Below are positions 5,677 to 22,082 of a DNA stretch of 32,000 bases, piece by piece. Under the pieces are notes generated by a model. It ran no database searches. It was not told the DNA's origin and saw only the letters and a list, made by a program, of their open reading frames with translations. This stretch comes from Candidatus Omnitrophota bacterium (GTDB lineage Bacteria; Omnitrophota; Gorgyraeia; 2-01-FULL-45-10). The stretch spans positions 90,001-122,000 of the forward strand of contig JAMWCX010000001.1 of the NCBI GenBank assembly GCA_023818895.1. Direction: 5' to 3'. Within the stretch, counting starts at the first letter, position 1; the number at the start of each line of letters is the position of its first letter. The position numbers and the translations under genes were made by a program.

Positions 5677-6597
5677 ATGGAAGATATAAAAATACTCAAG
5701 AACATAGAATTGGCGAATCCGGTTATGATAGCCGGATGGCCCGGCATGGGCACGGTGGCGCTCGGAGTCGTTGACTACCTGCGCAGAAAATTGGGCGCGA
5801 CGAAATTTGCCGAAATAGAACTCGACCCTCTTGCCACTATCGATTCTGTCCTTGTCGAAGACGGAGTGGCCACTATCCCGCCAATCCCAAAGAATATATT
5901 TTATTATGTGAGAAATCCAGATATTATAATACTTGAAGGGGAGGCCCAGCTTTCCGGTCAGGCAGGTTTGGCGCTTTTGGGCAAGGTGCTCGATGTCGCA
6001 GAAAGATTTAAGGTCAGAACCATATATACAGGAGCGGCATTTCCAATGCCTATAAGCCATAGAGAGGACCCAGAAGTCTACGGAGCCGTCAATAGAAGAG
6101 ACCTTCTAGATGTACTTCAGAAATTCGACATAAAGGCTATGGAGGGTGGCCACATATCGGGAATGAATGGTCTGATTCTCGGTCTGGCCAGGCAGAGAAA
6201 TATAGACGCCGTATGCCTTTTGGCCACAATGCCTCAATATGCCATAAGCCTGCCGAATCCCAAGGCGTCCGCTGCTATAATAGATGTTATGCAGAAGATG
6301 TTGAGTTTTGTCGTAAGTCTTGAGGAGTTGTACGAGTACATAAAGGATATGGACGAGAAGATGGCGGTAATAGAGGAAAAGGTGAAGGACGTTCTTACCA
6401 TAGAAAACGAAAAGGAAGCCCAGCCCCCTGCGGACAAGAAGGTTCCCGGCTACATAACCGATAAGATTGAAAGGCTTTTTAAGGAAGCCGAAAAGGATAA
6501 ATCTAAAGCTATTATACTCAAAAGAGAGCTCGACAGGTGGGACCTCTATAAAATATACGAAGACCGTTTTCTGGATCTTTTCAAGGATAGCCAATAA
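5677..6597 (+). CDS. PAC2 (proteasome assembly chaperone 2-like, PbaA/PbaB-type) family protein with a C-terminal coiled-coil extension
   Basis: LANPVMIAGWPGMGTVALGVVDYLRRKLGATKFAEI...IIILEGEAQ...GGHISGMNGLILGLARQRNIDAVCLLATMP resembles archaeal and bacterial PAC2 family members. The last ~90 aa are charged and helical. Confidence 0.65.
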   Translation: MEDIKILKNIELANPVMIAGWPGMGTVALGVVDYLRRKLGATKFAEIELDPLATIDSVLVEDGVATIPPIPKNIFYYVRNPDIIILEGEAQLSGQAGLALLGKVLDVAERFKVRTIYTGAAFPMPISHREDPEVYGAVNRRDLLDVLQKFDIKAMEGGHISGMNGLILGLARQRNIDAVCLLATMPQYAISLPNPKASAAIIDVMQKMLSFVVSLEELYEYIKDMDEKMAVIEEKVKDVLTIENEKEAQPPADKKVPGYITDKIERLFKEAEKDKSKAIILKRELDRWDLYKIYEDRFLDLFKDSQ

Positions 6598-9085: not shown

Positions 9086-9129
9086 AAGATTTTTGGTGCG
9101 CCAATAATTTTCACAAAAAGGAGGAGATA

Positions 9130-9297
9130 ATGGTAGAGAGGAGTGAGTATAAGGGCAAGCCTGTATTGATAATTAAAAGGAGCGAGGATGATAAGTATCC
9201 TTTCAGCTTTGGGTTGTCGAAAGCCAGGCTTATCCTTGAAAATATCGAGGAGATAAAGCGATTTGTGGAGGACAACTCCAAGGAAGAGGGTACGTAG
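9130..9297 (+). CDS. Small hypothetical protein (55 aa); faint PC4/YdbC-like pattern
   Basis: ATG at 9130 preceded by AAAGGAGGAG. Sequence MVERSEYKGKPVLIIKRSEDDKYPFSFGLSKARLILENIEEIKRFVE. The track start at 9079 lacks an SD. Confidence 0.5.
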   Translation: MVERSEYKGKPVLIIKRSEDDKYPFSFGLSKARLILENIEEIKRFVEDNSKEEGT

Positions 9298-9339
9298 CGG
9301 AAGCCTTCCAAAGCATAAAGACCCCGCCTTTTGCTTAAT

Positions 9340-9377
9340 AAAACAGGCCTTTAATTTTTAAGGCCTGTTTTATTATT
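9340..9377 (+). terminator. Rho-independent terminator at the end of the PAC2-flippase operon
   Basis: AAAACAGGCCT (9340-9350) pairs perfectly with AGGCCTGTTTT (9361-9371) around a 10-nt loop, followed by ATTATT. Confidence 0.65.
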
Positions 9378-9380
9378 ACC

Positions 9381-9409
9381 TTGTCAATTTGTTATTTGTC
9401 TAGTATACT
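9381..9409 (+). promoter_or_regulatory. Sigma70-type promoter upstream of the DUF134 gene
   Basis: TTGTCA (9381-9386), 17-nt spacer, TATACT (9404-9409). Confidence 0.55.
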
Positions 9410-9489
9410 TTTTGTATCTATGTTAATATTGAGTATATACTCATAAAATAACCTGTGGATAATTTTTATAAAATAGGTATTTAAAACTT

Positions 9490-9825
9490 ATGCCGAATGA
9501 GAGAAAAGACGAATTTACTGCCAAAAAAGGGCGCCCCGTTAAACCCAGAATAGTCCATAAAGAGCCTCAAACCACACAATTCAGTCCAAGGGGCAGAATC
9601 GGAAGGCCCGGCTATAAGGAGCTTAAGTTTGAGGAGCTTGAAGCTATAAGGTTGTCTGATTATATGGGGCTGAAGCAGAAAGAAGCGGCTAGCCGTATGG
9701 GGATTAGCCAGCAGACATTTTCGCGGGTATTAAGGAATGGTCGAAAACATCTTGCAGAAGCCCTTATAAACGGCGAAATTATAAAGGTCCAGGGTGGAGT
9801 CTTTAGAATTGAAAAATCGGCTTAA
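9490..9825 (+). CDS. DUF134 / UPF0251 family predicted DNA-binding protein
   Basis: KKGRPVKPRIV..P....FSPRG followed by EELEAIRLSDYMGLKQKEAASRMGISQQTFSRVLRNGRKHLAEALINGEIIKVQGG, which is the family's sigma-70-region-4-like HTH. Confidence 0.8.
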   Translation: MPNERKDEFTAKKGRPVKPRIVHKEPQTTQFSPRGRIGRPGYKELKFEELEAIRLSDYMGLKQKEAASRMGISQQTFSRVLRNGRKHLAEALINGEIIKVQGGVFRIEKSA

Positions 9826-9949
9826 ATTGGCGATATTTTTAATATTTTCGGCGACTCTAGCATTGACCATGGCAGGTTGCGCATCTATACCGATTCCGAG
9901 CCGGATTCCAATACCAAATGAGATACCAATCATTGGCGTATTGATCTAA
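9809..9949 (+). CDS. Candidate 46-aa lipoprotein/small membrane peptide, below the ORF-track length cutoff
   Basis: TTG start at 9809 with a GGTGGAG SD 9 nt upstream. Translation MKNRLKLAIFLIFSATLALTMAGC|ASIPIPSRIPIPNEIPIIGVLI has a positively charged n-region, a hydrophobic core and a lipobox-like TMAGC. It overlaps the DUF134 3' end by 17 nt. Confidence 0.35.
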   Translation: MKNRLKLAIFLIFSATLALTMAGCASIPIPSRIPIPNEIPIIGVLI

Positions 9950-10304
9950 TCTAGAAGTTCACCTAAAAAAGCGCCTAAAACAATCCATAAAAACCATAAA
10001 TAGCGGAGTATGATATATATGATTAAATGTCCTATAATATATCTTATGTTAACTATCTAATATGGAAATATAAATTGTAATATCTTGCACCCCAATATGT
10101 TACATGCATAATCTAATTTCCTGTTGATAAGTATATTTCTTTACGATTTTGGTTTTGTATTAGCTTTTACAAAACCATGGATGAGCGGTAATATTTTGGG
10201 TTGGATTATAAATCCTTATAGATATAATTACTGGCTGGTGTGTGGTGGTCGGGTATTACACAAGATTTTGCTGTGGCGGGCTTATAATGACGAATTTAGG
10301 GCAT

Positions 10305-10694
10305 TTAGCGGCGTTTCTTAGACTTTGTTTTGGCCGGTTTTTTTAACTTCTTTTGACACTCTATGGAGTCTATTGCGAACTCTTTTTGGTATATGATATT
10401 CAGGGACGGACTATGGCATTCCGGGCATATAAACGTCGGCCTTTCCACCATAAACCCTTTTTTGCAGGCCTCGCATTTGATCCCTAACTTAAGCGGACTA
10501 ACGTATAGTTTTACGGTCGAAAAAGGAGTGTTTTTTGCCATGGTCCTGAACGTTTCTTCAAGGGTTTTTGGAGTTACATGGCTTACAGGGCTCAATGCGA
10601 CGCGCACCGATTTTATCTTGATTGCTTTTCCGGACTTTTTCGATTTTTCTGTAAGCGCTGCCAGTATCTCCTGGCAGAACTTAAAATCATGCAT
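10305..10694 (-). CDS. hypA: HypA/HybF-like nickel metallochaperone with a lysine-rich C-terminal tail
   Basis: The N-terminal MHD corresponds to the MHE Ni-binding motif (His2). The zinc site CEAC...CPEC is present, and overall length and spacing are HypA-like. The tail reads KKLKKPAKTKSKKRR. Confidence 0.65.
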   Translation of the reverse strand: MHDFKFCQEILAALTEKSKKSGKAIKIKSVRVALSPVSHVTPKTLEETFRTMAKNTPFSTVKLYVSPLKLGIKCEACKKGFMVERPTFICPECHSPSLNIIYQKEFAIDSIECQKKLKKPAKTKSKKRR

Positions 10695-10704
10695 TGCAAT
10701 CTCC

Positions 10705-11097
10705 TTAAATACCTATTTTTTCGCGTAGTTCCTGGGGTAGTTTTATGGGCTTCAGGTCACGGTTAACGCATGCGCAGATGACCCTCGCGAACACCAGTAT
10801 ATCCTCTCCCCTTTTTATTTCCTGGAAGAAATGTATGGAGGCGTTTCCCATCATCTCAGGCCTGGTAAATACCCTTATTCCATCCCCATATCTGGCAGGC
10901 TTCTTATAGTCTATCTCAAGTCTTACCACCGGAAATATTATGCCGTTTTTGGCATATTCAGCGGTGTCCAAGCCCAGATTCCGGAAGTACTCTGACCTGC
11001 CCTCCTCAAGATGCTTTAGGTAAGATGCGTAGTATACAACTCCGCCTGCATCCGTGTCGTGGTAATATATTTTCTTTTCAATGTAAAAATCGCTCAT
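10705..11097 (-). CDS. Acyl-CoA thioesterase, YbgC/4HBT (hotdog fold) family
   Basis: IYYHDTDAGGVVYYASYLKHLEEGRSEYFRNLG...FPVVRLEIDYKKPARYGD is the classical YbgC signature. Confidence 0.8.
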   Translation of the reverse strand: MSDFYIEKKIYYHDTDAGGVVYYASYLKHLEEGRSEYFRNLGLDTAEYAKNGIIFPVVRLEIDYKKPARYGDGIRVFTRPEMMGNASIHFFQEIKRGEDILVFARVICACVNRDLKPIKLPQELREKIGI

Positions 11098-11720
11098 ATT
11101 CTCAGGATGGTTTTTATTATTGTGGTAATGACATTTTGTATAGTTATTATAACAGGATCTAGTAGTCCTGTAAACAATAACCCAAGAAGTATGAGCATGC
11201 CATATGGCTCCAGCCTCGCGAGCGCGATCTGCGCTCTTGGCGGCAGGATCCCCATAAGAACCCTTGAGCCGTCCAGGGGCGGTATTGGTATCAGGTTGAG
11301 GCTTCCGAGAAGTATGTTTATTCGTGCCAGGACCACCAGGATAACGGCAATGAGCGGATTAGAACGGATTTGCGTGAATTGCAGTAGGGATATAGACATC
11401 GTGGCGATGGCTATATTTACTATGCAGCCCGCTAATGATACAGAGACAAGCCCTATCCTGAAACTCCTTAAGTTAGAATAAGTTATTGGGACCGGCCTTG
11501 CCCATCCGAACCCCACAAGAAAAAGCGCGAGGGTTCCGATCGGGTCAAGATGCTTGAAAGGGTTGAGCGAAAGCCTTCCTGAACGTCTGGCGGTATCGTC
11601 GCCAAACATATATGCTACCCAGCCGTGGGCTATTTCATGGGCTATGACTGAGTATAAAATAGGTACTGATATTACTAAGAATAGAGCAGGATTTTTAAAA
11701 AGCAGCGAAGCGAGGCCCAT
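11094..11720 (-). CDS. Site-2 protease (peptidase M50) family membrane metalloprotease
   Basis: HEIAHG (HExxH) in the first TM region and NLIPIPPLDG as the second metal-binding motif. Polytopic. A 4-nt overlap links it to the thioesterase start. Confidence 0.8.
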   Translation of the reverse strand: MGLASLLFKNPALFLVISVPILYSVIAHEIAHGWVAYMFGDDTARRSGRLSLNPFKHLDPIGTLALFLVGFGWARPVPITYSNLRSFRIGLVSVSLAGCIVNIAIATMSISLLQFTQIRSNPLIAVILVVLARINILLGSLNLIPIPPLDGSRVLMGILPPRAQIALARLEPYGMLILLGLLFTGLLDPVIITIQNVITTIIKTILRI

Positions 11721-14306: not shown

Positions 14307-15566
14307 GTGAAAAGGACATTAGCGCTTATACTCGGAGGTGGCCAAGGAAAAAGACTTTTTCCGCTTACGATGTACCGGTCTAAACCCGCGGTTCCGATAG
14401 GAGGAAAATACCGGCTTATAGATATACCGATCTCTAACTGCCTGCATTCTGGGCTTAAAGACATATACGTTCTTACCCAATTCAACTCTGAATCTCTTAA
14501 TAATCATATAAATAATACCTACCGATTCGATTATTTCTCGAGGGCTTTTGTCCGTATACTTGCTGCGGAACAGACATTGGATAACACTAACTGGTTTCAG
14601 GGGACGGCCGATGCGGTGAGAAAGAACATGATACACTTGGATCTCAAGGGAGACGAGGAGATATTGATACTTTCTGGCGACCATTTGTATAATATGGACT
14701 ACCGTGAAATGGTATCATTCCATCGCAGGCATGAGGCGGATTTTACCGTTTCCGTTATCCCGATAAAGGTTCAAGAGGCCGCTGAGTTCGGAGTTCTTAG
14801 GATCAATGAAAGCTCAAGAATAACAGGTTTTAAGGAGAAACCCGCCACGCCTTCCGAGCTCAAAGGATTTACGATATCGGTAGACGATCTGGGAGTCGGC
14901 AGGCATCTCGGTAAAAACTGCTGCCTGGCGTCTATGGGGGTGTATCTTTTTAACGTCAAGGTGTTAATGAAGGCCCTTGAGGTGACAGGCGACGCAGATT
15001 TTGGCAAGGAAGTCATTCCCCACTCTATAAAGAAGTTCAAGGGGCTCGGTTTCCTTTATCACGGATACTGGAGAGATGTGGGAACGATAAGGTCTTATTA
15101 CGATGTGAGTATGGATATAGCAAAGCACAAGCCGTATCTTTCATTTTTTCACGAAGGCTCTGTTTTTACAAGGCCGCGCTTTTTGCCGTCTCCCAGAATA
15201 GCCAAGTGCAGGATTGAGGATTCGATAATCGCCGAAGGCTCAGTGATCGAAGACGCCTATATCAAAGAGTCGATAATTGGGCTTAGGTCTATAATAGGAC
15301 GTCGGTGTACGATTACCAGAAGTGTTATTATGGGGGCCGATTACTATGAAGATTTAGTTGCCCTTAAGGAAGATATGAGGGTTGGTATAGGTGACGATAC
15401 TATTATTGAGAGGGCGATAATAGACAAAAATGCCAGGATAGGAAGGAACGTTGTGATAAAGAATCTGAAGAGACTGAAAAACTTCGATGGCACCAATTAC
15501 TACATAAGGGACGGCATCGTCATCATACCTAAGAACGCGGGAATAAAGAGCGGGACGAGGATATAG
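14307..15566 (+). CDS. glgC: Glucose-1-phosphate adenylyltransferase (ADP-glucose pyrophosphorylase)
   Basis: ALILGGGQGKRLFPLTMYRSKPAVPIGGKYRLIDIPISNCLHSG...FQGTADAV...LSGDHLY, plus a C-terminal left-handed beta-helix region. GTG start with an AAGGTAGG SD. Confidence 0.85.
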   Translation: MKRTLALILGGGQGKRLFPLTMYRSKPAVPIGGKYRLIDIPISNCLHSGLKDIYVLTQFNSESLNNHINNTYRFDYFSRAFVRILAAEQTLDNTNWFQGTADAVRKNMIHLDLKGDEEILILSGDHLYNMDYREMVSFHRRHEADFTVSVIPIKVQEAAEFGVLRINESSRITGFKEKPATPSELKGFTISVDDLGVGRHLGKNCCLASMGVYLFNVKVLMKALEVTGDADFGKEVIPHSIKKFKGLGFLYHGYWRDVGTIRSYYDVSMDIAKHKPYLSFFHEGSVFTRPRFLPSPRIAKCRIEDSIIAEGSVIEDAYIKESIIGLRSIIGRRCTITRSVIMGADYYEDLVALKEDMRVGIGDDTIIERAIIDKNARIGRNVVIKNLKRLKNFDGTNYYIRDGIVIIPKNAGIKSGTRI

Positions 15567-19657: not shown

Positions 19658-20083
19658 TCAATCCTTTAGTGTAACCAATAACTCTTTTTTAAACCCCCTG
19701 ATCATCCTGTAGATAACAAAGTAACCAAGTCTTCCTATCGGGTTGGTGAACTGGTCAAATAATATGTGCTGCGTTAGACCTATGGCAGCCGCTTTCCAGT
19801 AATCGGAAAGAGACAGAGCGAATATCGCCAGCCAAAGGATCAGGACGAGTTCGTATGAATGCAAAATGACATATAGCTTTTTTATGCGTATTTCCTCGCA
19901 AGCGTTGTATATATATTTTATGCGTATCGTGAAAGGATGGCTGGTGTAATAATCGATGAAATGGTCGGCGTCTACAAGGACGCCTGCCGCCAAGGAGATG
20001 GCGGCACAGCCGATGGATTTGAAGTAAATCCCGACCGCAATGCTTATGATGCCCGATGCGGCGATATGTGCTAGAGGTTTCAA
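19658..20083 (-). CDS. DUF457 / YdjM-like membrane-bound metal-dependent hydrolase
   Basis: KPLAHIAASG at the N-terminus and LVDADHFIDY are typical of DUF457, with 4-5 TM segments. I prefer the TTG start at 20083 (AGGAAA SD 8 nt upstream, just after the upstream stop). The track start at 20179 would overlap the ParA gene by 82 nt. Confidence 0.6.
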   Translation of the reverse strand: MKPLAHIAASGIISIAVGIYFKSIGCAAISLAAGVLVDADHFIDYYTSHPFTIRIKYIYNACEEIRIKKLYVILHSYELVLILWLAIFALSLSDYWKAAAIGLTQHILFDQFTNPIGRLGYFVIYRMIRGFKKELLVTLKD

Positions 20084-20097
20084 GAGGGTATTTTCCT

Positions 20098-21231
20098 TTA
20101 TCCCTGGAGGTTTATTATGGAATCGAAAGTGCCGAACGAATTTTGCTCTCTTTCGGCGTTCTGAGAGTCGAGAACCCATTCGCCGTCAACAACGAATTTA
20201 TATTTATACCTACCGGGCGCAAGAGTAAACCTTTTTTCCCATTTTCCGTTTTCGAGCCTCGAAAGGCGGCTTTCATCGTTTATCTTCCAGTGGTTAAACT
20301 CGCCTACCACAAATATATTCTTTGCGTTAGGCGCATCTATATTGAAGGAGACCTCTCTTAAAATAGGGCTTGCCGGATCCATTGTCGAGCGAGGAGCATT
20401 GAGTGTTTGGGATACGGATTCTGTGCTTGATTGGGCTTGGCTTAAGGCCTGTTCGAACTCCAGCGCACCGTCCGCCCTCAATAATTCCCGCGCGAGGGCC
20501 AGATAGTCTTCGGCGCCTATCGAATCTTTATTGAAGCTGACAACACAGACGCCTTTTGCCGCTGCCTTCTTAAGATCTACGTTAAGTCTGATTATCGTGG
20601 AGAGCATCTGATTTCTGAAGAAAGTGCTTATTTCATCATACATTGCCTGGGAGTATTTTGTCCTTTTATCGAACAACGTGGCAAGCGCGTTGACCTGAGG
20701 GGCGTGGTTTATTTTTATTTTGATTAGCTCAAGCATCCCCAGAAGCTTCCCAACGCCCATAAGCGAAAACGCGCTCATGTCTATGGGGACTAATATTTGA
20801 TCGGCGGCTCTAAGGGCATTGAACGTCAGGAAGCCGAGGCTGGGAGGACAGTCGATAACTATATACTGGTAAGCCAGCTGGCTTGAGGCGAGCACCTGGT
20901 GGAGTTTCGATACGGCGTCCTCTTTGTCCTTGAGTTCCTGCTCGAGCGTGCTCAGCAGTATGTTTGAAGCAACGATGTCAAGATTATCGGATACCTTGAC
21001 TATGCATTCGTTTATCGTTCTGGTCTTTTCAGGATTCTCAGTAAGGATATTGTAGGTGGAACGGTCCATGCTCTGGTTGGTTACTCCGAGGCCGAAGCTT
21101 GCATGGGCTTGGGGATCGAGGTCTATTATTAGAGTCTTTTTGCCTAAGCTGGCGAGAGCCCCTGCCAGGTTTATGGTTGTGGTGGTCTTGCCGCAACCAC
21201 CCTTTTGATTAGCTACAGCTATTTTTTTCAT
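20098..21231 (-). CDS. Soj/ParA-type deviant Walker-A ATPase fused to a C-terminal AMPK-beta / CBM48-like glycogen-binding domain
   Basis: From the ATG at 21231 (GGAGGGG SD): KIAVANQKGGCGKTTTTINLAGALASLGKKTLIIDLDPQ, then DCPPSLGFLTFNALRAADQILVP. The last 84 aa, VSFNIDAPNAKNIFVVGEFNHWK...GRYKYKFVVDGEWVLD...GTFDSIINL, match the AMPK-beta GBD pattern. Confidence 0.8.
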   Translation of the reverse strand: MKKIAVANQKGGCGKTTTTINLAGALASLGKKTLIIDLDPQAHASFGLGVTNQSMDRSTYNILTENPEKTRTINECIVKVSDNLDIVASNILLSTLEQELKDKEDAVSKLHQVLASSQLAYQYIVIDCPPSLGFLTFNALRAADQILVPIDMSAFSLMGVGKLLGMLELIKIKINHAPQVNALATLFDKRTKYSQAMYDEISTFFRNQMLSTIIRLNVDLKKAAAKGVCVVSFNKDSIGAEDYLALARELLRADGALEFEQALSQAQSSTESVSQTLNAPRSTMDPASPILREVSFNIDAPNAKNIFVVGEFNHWKINDESRLSRLENGKWEKRFTLAPGRYKYKFVVDGEWVLDSQNAEREQNSFGTFDSIINLQG

Positions 21232-21278
21232 GACCCCTCCTTTTCTCCAGTTAAAAATATATACCATCAAACACTATT

Positions 21279-22082
21279 TTACAAATTTTTTTTGGCGAAT
21301 TCGACGCCGTTTCTGAATATATAAAATCCGTCGCCGGGGCCGTCTTTCATTTTTCTGGTCCAGCACGGATGCTGGTAGGGGCTTATATGCCTTTCGGGAT
21401 GAGGCATAAGGCCGAATATGCGGCCTGAAGGATCGCAGATGCCGGCTATATTCTCGACTGAGCCATTGGGGCAATAAGGATATCCCGCTCGCTTTCCTGC
21501 GACATCGACATATTCAAACACTATAAGCCCCTCGTCTTTTAGTTCCCTGAGTATATTTTCATCACGTGGGATGAACTTACCCTCGCCGTGAGCCACAGGA
21601 AGCTCTATCAAGCCATCAATGCCTTTAGCCCATACGCATTTTGATTTTTGATTTTTGGATTCCGGTTTTTTAAGATATACCCACCTATCCTCGAATTTGT
21701 CCGAGTCATTCAACGTAAGCGTGGCTTCGATGTTTTGGAAATTTCCGGATAGATTTGGCAGGAGCCCTGATTTGACAAGTATCTGAAAGCCGTTGCATAT
21801 GCCAATGATTAGCTTGCCATCATTTATGAACTTCTGCAAGTCCGACTCGACTTTGAATTTTAATTCGTTTGCTAGAATCTTCCCGCTTGCTATGTCGTCG
21901 CCGTAAGTGAAACCGCCCGGAATGGCCAGGATTTGATAGTCGTGGATGCTCCGCCTTTTTTTCGTTATCTCGTTTACGTGCACTAGCTCTGCGCGTCCTC
22001 CGGCACGCTCGAAGGCAAAAGCGGTCTCTTTGTCGCAGTTTGTGCCAGCGGTTCTTAATATCAGAACTTTGGGTTTAGGCAT
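21279..22082 (-). CDS. purQ: Phosphoribosylformylglycinamidine synthase, glutaminase subunit PurQ
   Basis: LRTAGTNCDKETAFAFERAG, the nucleophile Cys in GICNGFQ, and the HGEG and PHPE motifs. The start overlaps the purL stop by 1 nt (TAATG). Confidence 0.85.
   Translation of the reverse strand: MPKPKVLILRTAGTNCDKETAFAFERAGGRAELVHVNEITKKRRSIHDYQILAIPGGFTYGDDIASGKILANELKFKVESDLQKFINDGKLIIGICNGFQILVKSGLLPNLSGNFQNIEATLTLNDSDKFEDRWVYLKKPESKNQKSKCVWAKGIDGLIELPVAHGEGKFIPRDENILRELKDEGLIVFEYVDVAGKRAGYPYCPNGSVENIAGICDPSGRIFGLMPHPERHISPYQHPCWTRKMKDGPGDGFYIFRNGVEFAKKNL

What the first reader, a model, noticed from the sequence alone, without database searches (positions are those of the whole stretch)
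20098..21231. ParA/Soj-type positioning ATPase fused directly to an AMPK-beta/CBM48-like glycogen-binding domain
The first ~255 residues are a canonical small ParA/Soj ATPase, with deviant Walker A KGGCGKT including the signature Lys, DLDPQ and DCPPSLG. After an S/Q/A-rich linker of ~35 residues, the last 84 residues (nt 20101-20352) read VSFNIDAPNAKNIFVVGEFNHWK..LSRLENGKWEKRFTLAPGRYKYKFVVDGEWVLDSQNAEREQNSFGTFDSIINL. This aligns with the AMPK beta glycogen-binding domain (..V.L.GSFNNW....L.R...NF......LP.G.H.YKFFVDGQW.HDP......S..GT.NNII.V). The alignment includes both sugar-stacking Trp positions (FNHW, DGEW) and the Lys of YKF. ParA-like ATPases normally reach their cargo through a separate adaptor, such as ParB, McdB for carboxysomes, or partners of chemoreceptor arrays; BcsQ does the same for cellulose synthase. 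Here a carbohydrate-binding module is covalently attached and no ParB-like or McdB-like gene sits beside it. The simplest hypothesis is a nucleoid-ratchet system that positions or segregates glycogen (alpha-glucan) granules or a polysaccharide-bound complex. I do not know of such a system having been characterised. glgC lies 5 kb away, which is only weak contextual support.
Basis: partly seen in the sequence, partly recalled or inferred. Interest (0 to 1): 0.72.

Follow-up and report, generated by a model that had tools for sequence, protein, structure and literature searches.

The report
ParA ATPase fused to glycogen-binding module
This gene fuses a complete ParA/Soj-type positioning ATPase, through a floppy tether, to an AMPK-beta-type glycogen-binding module; the family occurs in at least 116 uncultured species and has never been studied, and it probably organises or partitions glycogen stores inside the cell.

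Summary
Window 20098-21231 (minus strand) encodes a 377-aa protein in three parts: a Soj-like deviant-Walker-A ATPase (residues 1-255), a disordered linker (256-292), and an AMPK1_CBM/CBM48 domain (293-375; Pfam 44.7 bits against a cutoff of 26.8). The CBM model (pLDDT 94) superposes on AMPK-beta CBM-cyclodextrin structures (TM 0.80-0.90). Its sugar-contact equivalents W315, K345, W352 and D370 are invariant or nearly so in 83 homologs.

The fusion is a real family. A scan of species-representative genomes found 116 with relatives. The best 80 all cover the full length and fall into two Omnitrophota clades, Thermodesulfobacteriota/Syntrophales, and one Binatia MAG. The held literature describes nothing like it.

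The Arg that Soj/ParA needs for DNA binding is never basic in this family, so a nucleoid ratchet is doubtful. The "no adaptor" claim holds for this window only. Most Omnitrophota homologs follow, often with overlapping stop and start codons, a single-pass membrane protein with a CBM30-like outer domain. Desulfobacterota homologs precede a small conserved protein. The ParB-peptide docking pocket is intact.

Best reading: an ATP-switched, bivalent glycogen tether that organises or partitions glycogen. It is a new variant of a known kind.

The parts
20098..21231 (-). Complete ParA-linker-CBM48 gene (377 aa plus the stop codon at 20098-20100).
   Evidence: ORF. Domain hits. Identical NCBI protein P0001. 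Gene call in L001.
21236..21242 (-). Shine-Dalgarno AAGGAGG, 4 nt upstream of the ATG at 21231. purQ ends about 47 nt upstream, so no upstream partner gene fits here.
   Evidence: Sequence read. purQ at 21279-22082.
20467..21231 (-). Soj/ParA-type deviant-Walker-A ATPase domain (residues 1-255).
   Evidence: AAA_31 at E 5.5e-51. Closest solved structure is M. xanthus chromosomal ParA 8RAY at E 1.7e-45, followed by T. thermophilus and H. pylori Soj. Foldseek TM 0.87 to 8RAY.
21184..21204 (-). Deviant Walker A, K10-GGCGK-T16, with signature Lys K10. Cys13 is a hallmark of this family.
   Evidence: K10, C13, K15, D37, D39 and D127 are identical in every homolog whose N-terminus is present, out of 83 (one is N-terminally truncated).
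20821..20847 (-). PPSLGFLTF (residues 129-137), the equivalent of the ParB-peptide docking loop of MxParA (L150, G151, L152).
   Evidence: It is the most conserved peptide in the family and was the one chosen as a scan pattern. L132, G133 and F134 are invariant in 83 of 83. Pocket residues come from PMC12462528.
20551..20589 (-). Remodelled loop R215-L-N-V-D219-L-K-K-A-A-A-K-G227. It replaces the canonical Soj DNA-binding loop 'PRNVRLSEAPSFG'.
   Evidence: Alignments to 8RAY, 1WCV and 6IUB. Position 219 is never basic in 83 sequences, while K/R221 is always basic. pLDDT is below 50 over residues 218-230.
20356..20466 (-). Disordered low-complexity linker (residues 256-292).
   Evidence: pLDDT below 50 over residues 269-287. 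Length 26-111 aa and 28% identity among 50 homologs.
20107..20355 (-). AMPK-beta-type CBM48 (residues 293-375). Predicted sugar contacts are W315, K345, W352, F366-G367-T368 and D370.
   Evidence: Pfam AMPK1_CBM and CBM_48 both above cutoff. phmmer hits to AMPK-beta CBM and pullulanase CBM48. Model of the CBM alone: pLDDT 94.4. Foldseek TM 0.80-0.90 and rmsd 1.3-2.0 A to 1Z0M, 4YEE and 4YEF. Residue conservation.
19658..20083 (-). Downstream 141-aa multi-pass membrane protein, weakly YdjM-like. It is a possible accessory partner in this genome.
   Evidence: Gene call in L001. YdjM at E 5.6e-4, below the cutoff. It lies within two genes downstream in 16 of 40 close-clade and 4 of 28 divergent-clade Omnitrophota loci.
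14307..15566 (+). glgC (ADP-glucose pyrophosphorylase). It is context only, but it shows the organism can make ADP-glucose for glycogen.
   Evidence: NTP_transferase plus LbH_GLGC. It lies within 8 genes of the fusion in 21 of 40 close-clade loci and in none from the other lineages.

Best explanation
**What it is.** An orphan ParA ATPase, derived from Soj, that is wired directly to cytoplasmic alpha-glucan (glycogen).

**How it probably works.**
1. The ATPase core is a normal ATP-driven monomer-to-dimer switch. All catalytic residues are kept.
2. Each subunit carries, on a flexible tether of 20-110 aa, an AMPK-beta-type CBM48 with an intact sugar-binding site.
3. ATP-dependent dimerisation turns a weak monovalent glycogen binder into a bivalent one. 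The dimer can clamp onto a glycogen particle or bridge two of them. ATP hydrolysis releases it.
4. The dimer also forms the conserved hydrophobic pocket that accepts ParB's N-terminal helix in ordinary ParA. I infer that a partner peptide docks there and times hydrolysis.
   - In most Omnitrophota, the candidate is the cytoplasmic N-terminus of the adjacent CBM30-like membrane protein.
   - In Desulfobacterota, it is a small downstream protein.
   - In this window, the partner is unknown or encoded elsewhere.
5. The net function is to organise, anchor or evenly partition glycogen granules. That matters in very small cells holding few granules.

**Shown versus inferred.** Shown here: domain identities, conservation of the catalytic, sugar-binding and pocket residues, and the taxonomic spread. 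Inferred: glycogen binding, the avidity switch, the identity of the partner, the surface the dimer works on (nucleoid or membrane), and the cellular role.
For: - **ATPase.** K10, K15, D37, D39 and D127 are conserved throughout 83 sequences down to 45% identity. The fold matches Soj.
- **CBM.** Pfam hits are above cutoff. The model superposes on the cyclodextrin-bound AMPK-beta CBMs. W315 and W352 are in 83 of 83, K345 in 81, D370 in 80, and position 366 is aromatic in 80.
- **Alpha-glucan specificity.** The nearest CBM relatives are tandem arrays, some on GH13 alpha-amylases.
- **Selection.** Both domains are constrained (75% and 70% identity) while the linker drifts (28%).
- **Persistence of the fusion.** It is kept in 116 species genomes across Omnitrophota, Thermodesulfobacteriota and Binatia. 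The best 80 loci all cover the full length.
- **Partner pocket.** L132, G133 and F134 are invariant.
- **Linked genes.** Conserved neighbours exist even where the wider neighbourhood differs.
- **Not a ParAB pair.** No ParB lies within 10 kb in 84 loci.
- **Glycogen precursor supply.** glgC is present in the window.
Against: - There is no experimental evidence. All carriers are uncultured MAGs.
- The canonical DNA-binding Arg is missing, so the usual ParA working surface, the nucleoid, is uncertain. No alternative surface has been demonstrated.
- A cargo-binding domain sitting on ParA itself does not fit the standard model, in which a stimulating factor on the cargo creates a ParA depletion zone.
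- The window, like 13 of 40 close-clade loci, has no cluster-1 partner next to the gene.
- I could not check whether the genome encodes the rest of the glycogen pathway, or a separate ParAB.
- CBM48-type folds are sometimes used for protein-protein contacts.
Confidence: 0.42

Rival explanations
1. Glycogen is the scaffold rather than the cargo. On this reading the CBM has replaced the lost DNA-binding surface, so ATP-dimers coat glycogen instead of the nucleoid. The thing being positioned or regulated is the partner: the CBM30-like membrane protein in Omnitrophota, or the 145-aa protein in Desulfobacterota. One version has the system tethering glycogen to the membrane and linking a periplasmic glycan-binding domain to cytoplasmic stores.
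For: - The canonical DNA-binding Arg is lost in all 83 sequences.
- The upstream membrane protein has stop/start overlap with the fusion gene (often 4 nt) and a conserved cytoplasmic N-terminal peptide. It is linked in 26 of 28 and 19 of 40 loci despite unrelated wider contexts.
- Its outer domain is CBM30-like.
- The ParB-type docking pocket is invariant.
Against: - The partner is absent from the window, from 21 of 40 close-clade loci and from all Desulfobacterota loci.
- CBM binding is not inherently ATP-dependent.
- A membrane-embedded cargo cannot be moved far.
- No interaction was modelled or measured.
Confidence: 0.2
2. It is this lineage's chromosomal Soj/ParA, still working with a ParB encoded elsewhere. 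The CBM48 is a regulatory add-on that couples chromosome segregation or replication control to glycogen or energy status, much as AMPK-beta senses glycogen.
For: - The closest solved structures are chromosomal ParAs.
- The ParB-peptide pocket is intact.
- In the close Omnitrophota clade the gene sits 2-4 genes from mnmG/gidA, the classical gid-par neighbourhood. No other ParA-like gene occurs in those flanks.
Against: - No ParB lies within 10 kb in 84 loci.
- The DNA-binding Arg is missing.
- It scores below NCBIfam's ParA_partition equivalog cutoff, 105.8 against 180.
- The divergent Omnitrophota clade and the Desulfobacterota carry the gene in unrelated contexts.
- Close-clade proteins are more similar to the Desulfobacterota ones (54-59%) than to the other Omnitrophota clade (45-49%). 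That suggests horizontal transfer of an accessory gene.
- From general knowledge, Desulfobacterota normally have a canonical ParABS of their own. I did not test this.
Confidence: 0.15
3. The C-terminal domain has the CBM48 fold but does not bind glycogen. Instead it mediates a protein-protein contact or binds another glycan, so the system has nothing to do with storage polysaccharide.
For: - E-set/CBM48-like folds are reused as interaction modules. For example, NCBIfam gives a weak hit to a T9SS plug protein.
- Conservation of surface aromatic residues would also fit a protein interface.
Against: - Every AMPK-beta sugar-contact equivalent is retained across three lineages.
- The best structural matches are cyclodextrin-bound CBMs.
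- The nearest sequence relatives are tandem CBMs on GH13 alpha-amylases.
Confidence: 0.12
4. It is a BcsQ-like ParA/MinD ATPase belonging to an (exo)polysaccharide synthesis or secretion machine.
For: - Weak Pfam and NCBIfam similarity to BcsQ.
- A partner with an extracytoplasmic CBM-like domain.
- A Polysacc_synt (Wzx-like) gene in the window, 11 kb away.
Against: - No glycosyltransferase, synthase or export gene is conserved near the fusion in any lineage.
- Similarity to Soj (E 1e-45) is far greater than to BcsQ (E 2.5e-8).
- The CBM is cytoplasmic.
Confidence: 0.04

Closest known systems
Chromosomal ParA/Soj (M. xanthus ParA 8RAY; T. thermophilus Soj 1WCV/2BEK; H. pylori Soj 6IUB)
   Same: - Same fold (TM 0.83-0.87).
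- About 35% identity in the structural alignment.
[quoted passage not shown]
- Intact equivalents of the hydrophobic pocket that binds ParB's N-terminal peptide.
   Different: - The DNA-binding Arg (MxParA R238) is replaced by D, T, A, S or V.
- The 'RNVRLSEAPSFG' loop is remodelled.
- There is no adjacent ParB.
- A 120-aa C-terminal extension (linker plus CBM48) has been added.
- Walker A has Cys where other ParAs have Val.
AMPK beta-subunit carbohydrate-binding module (CBM48; 1Z0M, 4YEE, 4YEF) and SEX4/pullulanase CBM48
   Same: - Beta-sandwich fold, rmsd 1.3-2.0 A over about 85 residues.
- Equivalents of W100, K126, W133, G147-T148 and N150 are retained.
- Like AMPK-beta, it tethers a cytoplasmic regulatory or enzymatic unit to glycogen.
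   Different: - It is attached to a ParA ATPase rather than to a kinase scaffold or a glycoside hydrolase.
- L146 is replaced by Phe or Tyr, and N150 by Asp.
- Sequence identity is only about 27%.
McdA-McdB carboxysome positioning, and other orphan ParA cargo systems (PpfA, ParC, PomZ)
   Same: All use a ParA-family ATPase, not paired with ParB, to position a non-DNA cytoplasmic cargo. Partner proteins act through short terminal peptides.
   Different: - Those systems recognise cargo through a separate adaptor and use the nucleoid as the working surface.
- Here the cargo-recognition module is part of the ATPase itself, and DNA binding is doubtful.
- Sequence similarity to McdA is low (E 1e-11).
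PhaM (PHB granule-nucleoid tether of Ralstonia eutropha); recalled from my own knowledge, not tested here
   Same: The concept is the same: a protein that physically links storage-polymer granules to a cellular scaffold so that both daughter cells inherit them.
   Different: PhaM is not an ATPase and is unrelated in sequence. It acts as a passive tether.
BcsQ (the ParA/MinD ATPase of cellulose secretion systems)
   Same: A ParA/MinD-fold ATPase associated with a polysaccharide.
   Different: BcsQ is encoded in the bcs operon and has no CBM. Here there is no synthase context, and the protein is much closer to Soj.

Membership tests
ParA/MinD superfamily (deviant Walker A ATPases) | Deviant Walker A, KGGxGK[ST], with an N-terminal signature Lys. 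| tested here: met
   K10-GGCGK15-T16. It is identical in every one of the 83 homologs whose N-terminus is present.
ParA/MinD superfamily (deviant Walker A ATPases) | Walker A' and Walker B aspartates, and the Soj-like alpha/beta fold. | tested here: met
   D37, D39 and D127 are invariant. Foldseek gives TM 0.87 to 8RAY and 0.86 to T. thermophilus Soj.
Chromosomal ParA/Soj of a ParABS system | Arg or Lys residues for ATP-dependent non-specific DNA binding (MxParA R238; H. pylori Soj K227 and K230; the B. subtilis Soj R189 equivalence is from my own knowledge). | tested here: not met
   The R238 equivalent (position 219) is D here and D, T, A, S or V in all 83 sequences. The equivalent of HpSoj K227 is L, M, Q or H. 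R190 and K/R221 are basic in all three clades, and R215 in 76 of 83 (PMC12462528; PMC6393308). DNA binding through other residues is not excluded.
Chromosomal ParA/Soj of a ParABS system | A cognate parB gene (usually adjacent) and parS sites. | tested here: not met
   No ParB domain occurs in the window. Whether ParB exists elsewhere in the genome could not be tested with these tools.
Chromosomal ParA/Soj of a ParABS system | [quoted passage not shown] | tested here: met
   By alignment these map to L132, G133 and F134 (83 of 83) and I174 (I, L or M in most). Y81 maps to Y60 and E117 to E97, both invariant. E82 becomes N, and D110 becomes N or H.
Chromosomal ParA/Soj of a ParABS system | Scores above NCBIfam's ParA_partition equivalog cutoff. 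| tested here: not met
   NF041546 scores 105.8 bits against a cutoff of 180.
CBM48 / AMPK1_CBM glycogen-binding module | Profile-HMM match above the curated threshold. | tested here: met
   PF16561 scores 44.7 bits against 26.8, and PF02922 scores 27.0 against 22.4. With the domain alone the scores are 48.0 and 30.4.
CBM48 / AMPK1_CBM glycogen-binding module | A beta-sandwich fold that superposes on solved CBM48 domains. | tested here: met
   The model of the CBM alone has pLDDT 94.4. Foldseek's top 50 hits are AMPK-beta, SNF1 and SEX4 CBMs plus a Rhodothermus GH13 alpha-amylase CBM48, with TM 0.80-0.90.
CBM48 / AMPK1_CBM glycogen-binding module | The sugar-binding residues: two stacking Trp, a Lys, the loop Leu-Gly-Thr, and an Asn. 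These are AMPK beta-1 W100, K126, W133, L146-T148 and N150; their roles are recalled from the published 1Z0M structure. | tested here: met
   By alignment the equivalents are W315, K345, W352, F366-G367-T368 and D370. Conservation in 83 sequences: both Trp 83 of 83, K345 81, G367 82, D370 80, position 366 aromatic in 80.
CBM48 / AMPK1_CBM glycogen-binding module | Actual binding of glycogen or other alpha-1,4-glucan. | not testable with these tools
   This needs pull-down or ITC with glycogen, amylose or beta-cyclodextrin.
McdAB-type adaptor-dependent cargo positioning | A small adaptor protein (McdB-like) encoded next to the ATPase. | tested here: inconclusive
   None is present in the window, where purQ is directly upstream and a weakly YdjM-like membrane protein is downstream. 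In other genomes a CBM30-like membrane protein (upstream) or a 145-aa protein (downstream) is tightly linked. No interaction has been shown.
MinD | A C-terminal amphipathic membrane-targeting helix, with MinC/MinE partners. | tested here: not met
   The C-terminus is the linker plus CBM48. There are no min genes nearby. MinD models score far below cutoff.
BcsQ-type polysaccharide-secretion ATPase | Encoded within a polysaccharide synthase or secretion operon. | tested here: not met
   The neighbours are purine-biosynthesis genes (purF, purL, purQ, with guaA), LOG, mnmG and a radical-SAM gene in one clade. In the other they are RmuC, TilS, nucleases, PFOR, UvrD and PilM/O.

The most novel reading that the evidence does not exclude
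This would be the first dedicated active system for organising or partitioning a storage polysaccharide in bacteria.

In this reading, a ParA-type ATPase has exchanged its nucleoid-binding surface for a tethered glycogen-binding module. ATP-driven dimerisation then acts as an avidity switch on glycogen. Hydrolysis is timed by the cytoplasmic N-terminal peptide of a membrane protein whose periplasmic CBM30-like domain senses an external glycan. The two-gene module would physically link periplasmic carbohydrate status to the placement and inheritance of cytoplasmic glycogen.
Probability: 0.22. Interest if true: 0.85.

Novelty: new variant of a known kind. Interest (0 to 1): 0.68.

Why it matters
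How bacteria place and inherit glycogen granules is essentially unknown. Active ParA-type positioning has been shown for chromosomes, plasmids, carboxysomes, chemoreceptor arrays and division sites, but not for a storage polysaccharide.

This family differs from known systems in design. Its cargo-recognition module is built into the ATPase rather than carried by a separate adaptor, and the canonical DNA-binding Arg is missing. It therefore tests how far the ParA mechanism can be rewired, including whether it can work on a surface other than the nucleoid.

The family is easy to work with. The protein is small and soluble, and mutants are easy to design: K15, D39, W315, W352, K345 and the L132/F134 pocket. 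The gene occurs in at least 116 species genomes across two or three phyla.

It may also explain how ultra-small Omnitrophota cells avoid losing their few glycogen granules by chance at division.

Tried and rejected
**Assembly or frameshift chimera: rejected.** At least 120 independent clusters and the 80 best of 116 genome loci share the full-length architecture.

**Alternative TTG start at 21270: rejected.** The Shine-Dalgarno sequence and the homolog N-termini support the ATG at 21231.

**ParB search: negative.** No ParB domain occurs in any window ORF. Genome-wide absence could not be tested.

**Cluster-1, cluster-13 or cluster-37 homologs in the window: none found** by tblastn. Cluster 37 looks like a spurious ORF over a conserved upstream region.

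**BcsQ-like secretion context: rejected** on neighbour annotation.

**Using the exhaustive CBM-only search to find the fusion in other phyla: uninformative.** Multi-copy CBM proteins filled the top 150 hits. The genome-collection scan answered the question instead.

**Full-length Foldseek:** it returned only ParA hits, so I built a separate model of the CBM alone.

**Literature:** ten full-text searches found no description of the architecture.

**Post-ATPase helix 'EFEKAL' as a general regulatory element: rejected.** It is conserved in the close Omnitrophota clade only.

**tRNA and Rfam scans of the window:** both empty.
Full report

Yes. The minus strand carries an ORF at 20098..21270. Its true start is the ATG at 21231. 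An AAGGAGG Shine-Dalgarno sequence lies 4 nt upstream, and all homologs begin MKxIA.

The 377-aa product has two Pfam-supported domains:
- AAA_31/CbiA/MipZ/ParA over residues 1-250 (AAA_31 at E 5.5e-51).
- AMPK1_CBM over residues 302-374 (E 1.5e-11, 44.7 bits against a gathering cutoff of 26.8), with CBM_48 also above its cutoff.

The exact protein is in NCBI as 'AAA family ATPase [Candidatus Omnitrophica bacterium]'. At least 120 clusters at 90% identity share the full-length architecture, so this is not an assembly or frameshift artefact.

**2. Anatomy**

*ATPase.* The closest solved structures are chromosomal ParA/Soj proteins:
- M. xanthus ParA 8RAY, E 1.7e-45.
- T. thermophilus Soj, E 7e-35.
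- H. pylori Soj, E 1e-31.

McdA, MinD and the plasmid ParA types are far behind. The AlphaFold model built from a 50-sequence alignment (pLDDT 79) gives Foldseek TM 0.87 to 8RAY. The signature Lys K10, K15, D37, D39 and D127 are identical in every homolog whose N-terminus is present, out of 83 spanning 45-100% identity. An unusual Cys in the Walker A motif (KGGCGKT) is conserved in the same way.

*Linker.* Residues 256-292 are disordered (pLDDT below 50). Among homologs the linker varies from 26 to 111 aa and is only 28% identical. The ATPase is 75% identical and the CBM 70%. This is the pattern expected of a flexible tether between two constrained domains.

*CBM.* phmmer matches a pullulanase CBM48 (E 7.5e-8) and the AMPK beta-2 and beta-1 CBMs (E 7e-6 to 5e-5). 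A model of the CBM alone is very confident (pLDDT 94.4, pTM 0.84). Nearly all of its top 50 Foldseek hits are AMPK-beta, SNF1 or SEX4 CBMs, with TM 0.80-0.90 and rmsd 1.3-2.0 A. They include the cyclodextrin complexes 1Z0M, 4YEE and 4YEF.

The AMPK beta-1 sugar-contact residues map as follows. Their roles are recalled from the 1Z0M structure paper.

| AMPK beta-1 | Here | Conservation in 83 homologs |
|---|---|---|
| W100 | W315 | 83 of 83 |
| K126 | K345 | 81 of 83 |
| W133 | W352 | 83 of 83 |
| L146 | F366 | aromatic in 80 of 83 |
| G147 | G367 | 82 of 83 |
| N150 | D370 | 80 of 83 |

T148 maps to T368, which is less conserved: T or S in the close Omnitrophota clade and the Desulfobacterota, but mostly G in the divergent clade.

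An exhaustive search of 1.84 billion representative proteins with the CBM alone found 7623 relatives. The nearest outside the family carry 3-18 tandem copies of the same domain, and some of these are on GH13 alpha-amylases. That independently points to alpha-glucan specificity.

**3. Distribution**

A scan of one genome per species (GTDB) found 116 genomes encoding relatives. The best 80 all cover query residues 1-375, apart from one cut by a contig end. None of them lacks the CBM. They fall into three groups:
- **Close Omnitrophota clade**, 55-82% identity. It includes MAGs labelled 'uncultured Planctomycetia' that share the window's gene order.
- **Divergent Omnitrophota clade**, 45-49% identity.
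- **Desulfobacterota and Binatia**, 54-59% identity. These MAGs are labelled Thermodesulfobacteriota, 'delta proteobacterium', Syntrophales or Syntrophorhabdales, plus one Binatia MAG.

The close Omnitrophota clade is more similar to the Desulfobacterota proteins than to the other Omnitrophota clade. This suggests the gene has moved horizontally as an accessory gene.

**4. Context and candidate partners**

In the close clade the gene sits in a strongly conserved block: purF-guaA-purL-purQ-[±X]-ParA_CBM-[±YdjM-like]-[±LOG]-[±response regulator]-mnmG-radical SAM-glgC (opposite strand)-PhoU/PHO4. glgC therefore belongs to a general block of conserved gene order. It is near the fusion in 21 of 40 close-clade loci and in none of the other lineages.

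No ParB is found in the window or within 10 kb in 84 loci.

Clustering 1270 neighbouring ORFs revealed two tightly linked genes.

*X, or cluster 1 (220-300 aa).* It lies immediately upstream on the same strand in 26 of 28 divergent-clade and 19 of 40 close-clade loci. Its stop often overlaps the ParA start by 4 nt. This linkage holds even though everything else in the neighbourhood differs between the two clades. The protein has four parts:
- A conserved N-terminal cytoplasmic peptide (MSKxxExLK ... LAxTYF).
- A basic stretch.
- One transmembrane helix.
- A C-terminal CBM30-like beta-sandwich. Pfam CBM30 matches 12 of 30 members (best E 4e-7), and the family profile hits the CBM30 structures 1WMX and 2C24 at E 2e-4.

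*Cluster 13 (145 aa).* It lies immediately downstream in 13 of 15 Desulfobacterota loci. It has an Fn3-like 'WWEPV..A..YVVYV' core, a basic N-terminus (MPFIRKRR) and a C-terminal tail resembling that of LivG.

The window has neither. purQ ends about 47 nt upstream of the start codon, and tblastn finds no homolog of either anywhere in the 32 kb. The window does have the weakly YdjM-like membrane protein directly downstream (19658-20083). That gene recurs in 16 of 40 close-clade and 4 of 28 divergent-clade loci.

Neighbours in the divergent clade are RmuC, TilS, nucleases, PFOR, UvrD and PilM/O. There are no glycosyltransferase or export genes.

**5. Two residue-level tests of the mechanism**

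*(a) DNA binding.* MxParA R238E lacks non-specific DNA binding (PMC12462528). H. pylori Soj uses K199, K227, K230 and K247 (PMC6393308). In the alignments the canonical loop 'PRNVRLSEAPSFG' reads 'IRLNVDLKKAAAKG' here. The R238 equivalent is D219, and it is D, T, A, S or V in all 83 homologs, never basic. R190 and K/R221 are basic in all three clades, and R215 in 76 of 83. AlphaFold is not confident over residues 218-230. Canonical nucleoid binding is therefore doubtful, though binding through other residues is not excluded.

*(b) Partner docking.* The MxParA residues that contact ParB's N-terminal helix are L150, G151, L152 and L192. They map to L132, G133, F134 and I174. The first three lie in 'PPSLGFLTF', the most conserved peptide of the whole family, and are invariant in 83 of 83. 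Y81 and E117 of the adjacent activation patch are also retained. The protein therefore looks built to receive a partner's amphipathic helix when it dimerises.

**6. Most likely mechanism**

*Shown.* The protein is a catalytically complete, ATP-dimerising Soj-type ATPase. It is joined by a flexible tether to a CBM48 with a complete AMPK-beta-type sugar site. The fusion is under purifying selection in three lineages.

*Inferred.*
1. The CBM binds cytoplasmic glycogen.
2. ATP-driven dimerisation makes the protein bivalent, giving an avidity switch on a multivalent polymer.
3. A partner peptide docks in the conserved pocket and controls hydrolysis.
4. The outcome is anchoring, spacing or partitioning of glycogen granules.

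I put 0.42 on this overall. The sub-claims rate higher: about 0.75 for glycogen binding and about 0.85 for the ATP switch.

*Rivals.*

| Rival reading | Confidence |
|---|---|
| Glycogen is the scaffold and the partner is the cargo, or the system tethers glycogen to the membrane | 0.20 |
| It is the lineage's chromosomal Soj, with the CBM as a glycogen-sensing regulatory add-on | 0.15 |
| The CBM-like domain does not bind glycogen | 0.12 |
| It is a BcsQ-like component of a polysaccharide secretion machine | 0.04 |

**7. Comparison with known systems, and novelty**

It works like an orphan ParA cargo system of the McdAB, PpfA or PomZ type. It differs in three ways:
- Cargo recognition is built into the ATPase itself.
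- The predicted cargo is a storage polysaccharide.
- The canonical DNA-binding Arg is missing.

It is a member of the ParA/MinD superfamily and descends from the Soj clade. It fails three membership tests for a ParABS ParA: the DNA-binding Arg, an adjacent ParB, and the NCBIfam equivalog cutoff. The CBM passes every computational test for CBM48/AMPK1_CBM.

Ten full-text searches found no description of this architecture or of ParA-type glycogen positioning. The domain combination is visible in automatic annotations, but those only say 'AAA family ATPase' or 'chromosome partitioning protein'. I rate it a new variant of a known kind, interest 0.68.

**8. Limits**

- All carriers are uncultured MAGs.
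- I could not read whole genomes, so ParB, a second ParA and the full glg pathway remain unchecked.
- I could not inspect model coordinates to measure surface exposure.
- The three lineage groups were assigned from the record titles and identity bands.
- ORFs in the fetched loci were called with a simple longest-ORF rule.

Noticed in passing
L003:7287-7997, L004:7275-7997 and 44 other loci (alignment A3); absent from the window: A family of single-pass membrane proteins with no Pfam annotation. Each has a conserved cytoplasmic N-terminal peptide (MSKxxExLK...LAxTYF) and an extracytoplasmic CBM30-like domain. Its stop often overlaps the start of the ParA-CBM48 gene by 4 nt in most Omnitrophota. 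It is a candidate ParA partner.
   Followed up: partly
L034:11181-11618, and 12 other Desulfobacterota loci: A conserved 145-aa protein lies directly downstream of the fusion in Desulfobacterota. It has an Fn3-like core and a basic N-terminus (MPFIRKRR). Its C-terminal tail (LEEV.DNEEV.DAYLG) matches the C-terminal tail of LivG-type ABC ATPases (PF12399, E 4e-5, just below cutoff).
   Followed up: partly
P0254 (384 aa) and P0244 (213 aa), from the representative search: A CBM 61-67% identical to this one appears on other N-terminal domains: HEPN_AbiV in P0254 and a Methyltransf_33 fragment in P0244. Both are singleton metagenome proteins. They may be real evidence that this CBM is a reusable glycogen-targeting tag, or they may be assembly chimeras.
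   Followed up: no
P0121-P0270: A large uncharacterised population of proteins carries 3-18 tandem AMPK1_CBM copies, including many of about 480 aa with four copies. Named examples come from Hydrogenedentota and Lindowbacteria. Some are fused to GH13 alpha-amylase.
   Followed up: partly
window 21184-21204 (Walker A): The Walker A motif has an invariant Cys (KGGCGKT) in all 83 family members, where other ParAs have Val or Ile. It could be a redox-sensitive or metal-sensitive position.
   Followed up: no
window about 9100-11100: Gene orientation and cumulative GC skew both switch here. Genes at 1-9 kb are on the plus strand with positive skew. Genes at 11-32 kb are on the minus strand with weakly negative skew. 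That is the pattern of converging replication forks or converging transcription. The roughly 2-kb stretch holds only small ORFs and has no tRNA or Rfam hit.
   Followed up: partly
window 19658-20083 (-): A 141-aa multi-pass membrane protein, weakly YdjM-like (E 5.6e-4, below cutoff), lies 14 nt downstream of the fusion gene. It recurs downstream of the fusion in both Omnitrophota clades.
   Followed up: partly
L034-L039, about 260 nt upstream of the fusion gene (for example L034:9727-9984): A conserved upstream stretch in six Desulfobacterota loci is picked up as an implausible 78-120-aa ORF (cluster 37). It may be a conserved non-coding leader or regulatory element.
   Followed up: no
window 5677-6597 (+): A PAC2-family protein (related to proteasome assembly chaperones; E 1.8e-37) is encoded in this bacterial genome, next to a DUF748/AsmA-like gene and a Polysacc_synt flippase-like gene.
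   Followed up: no
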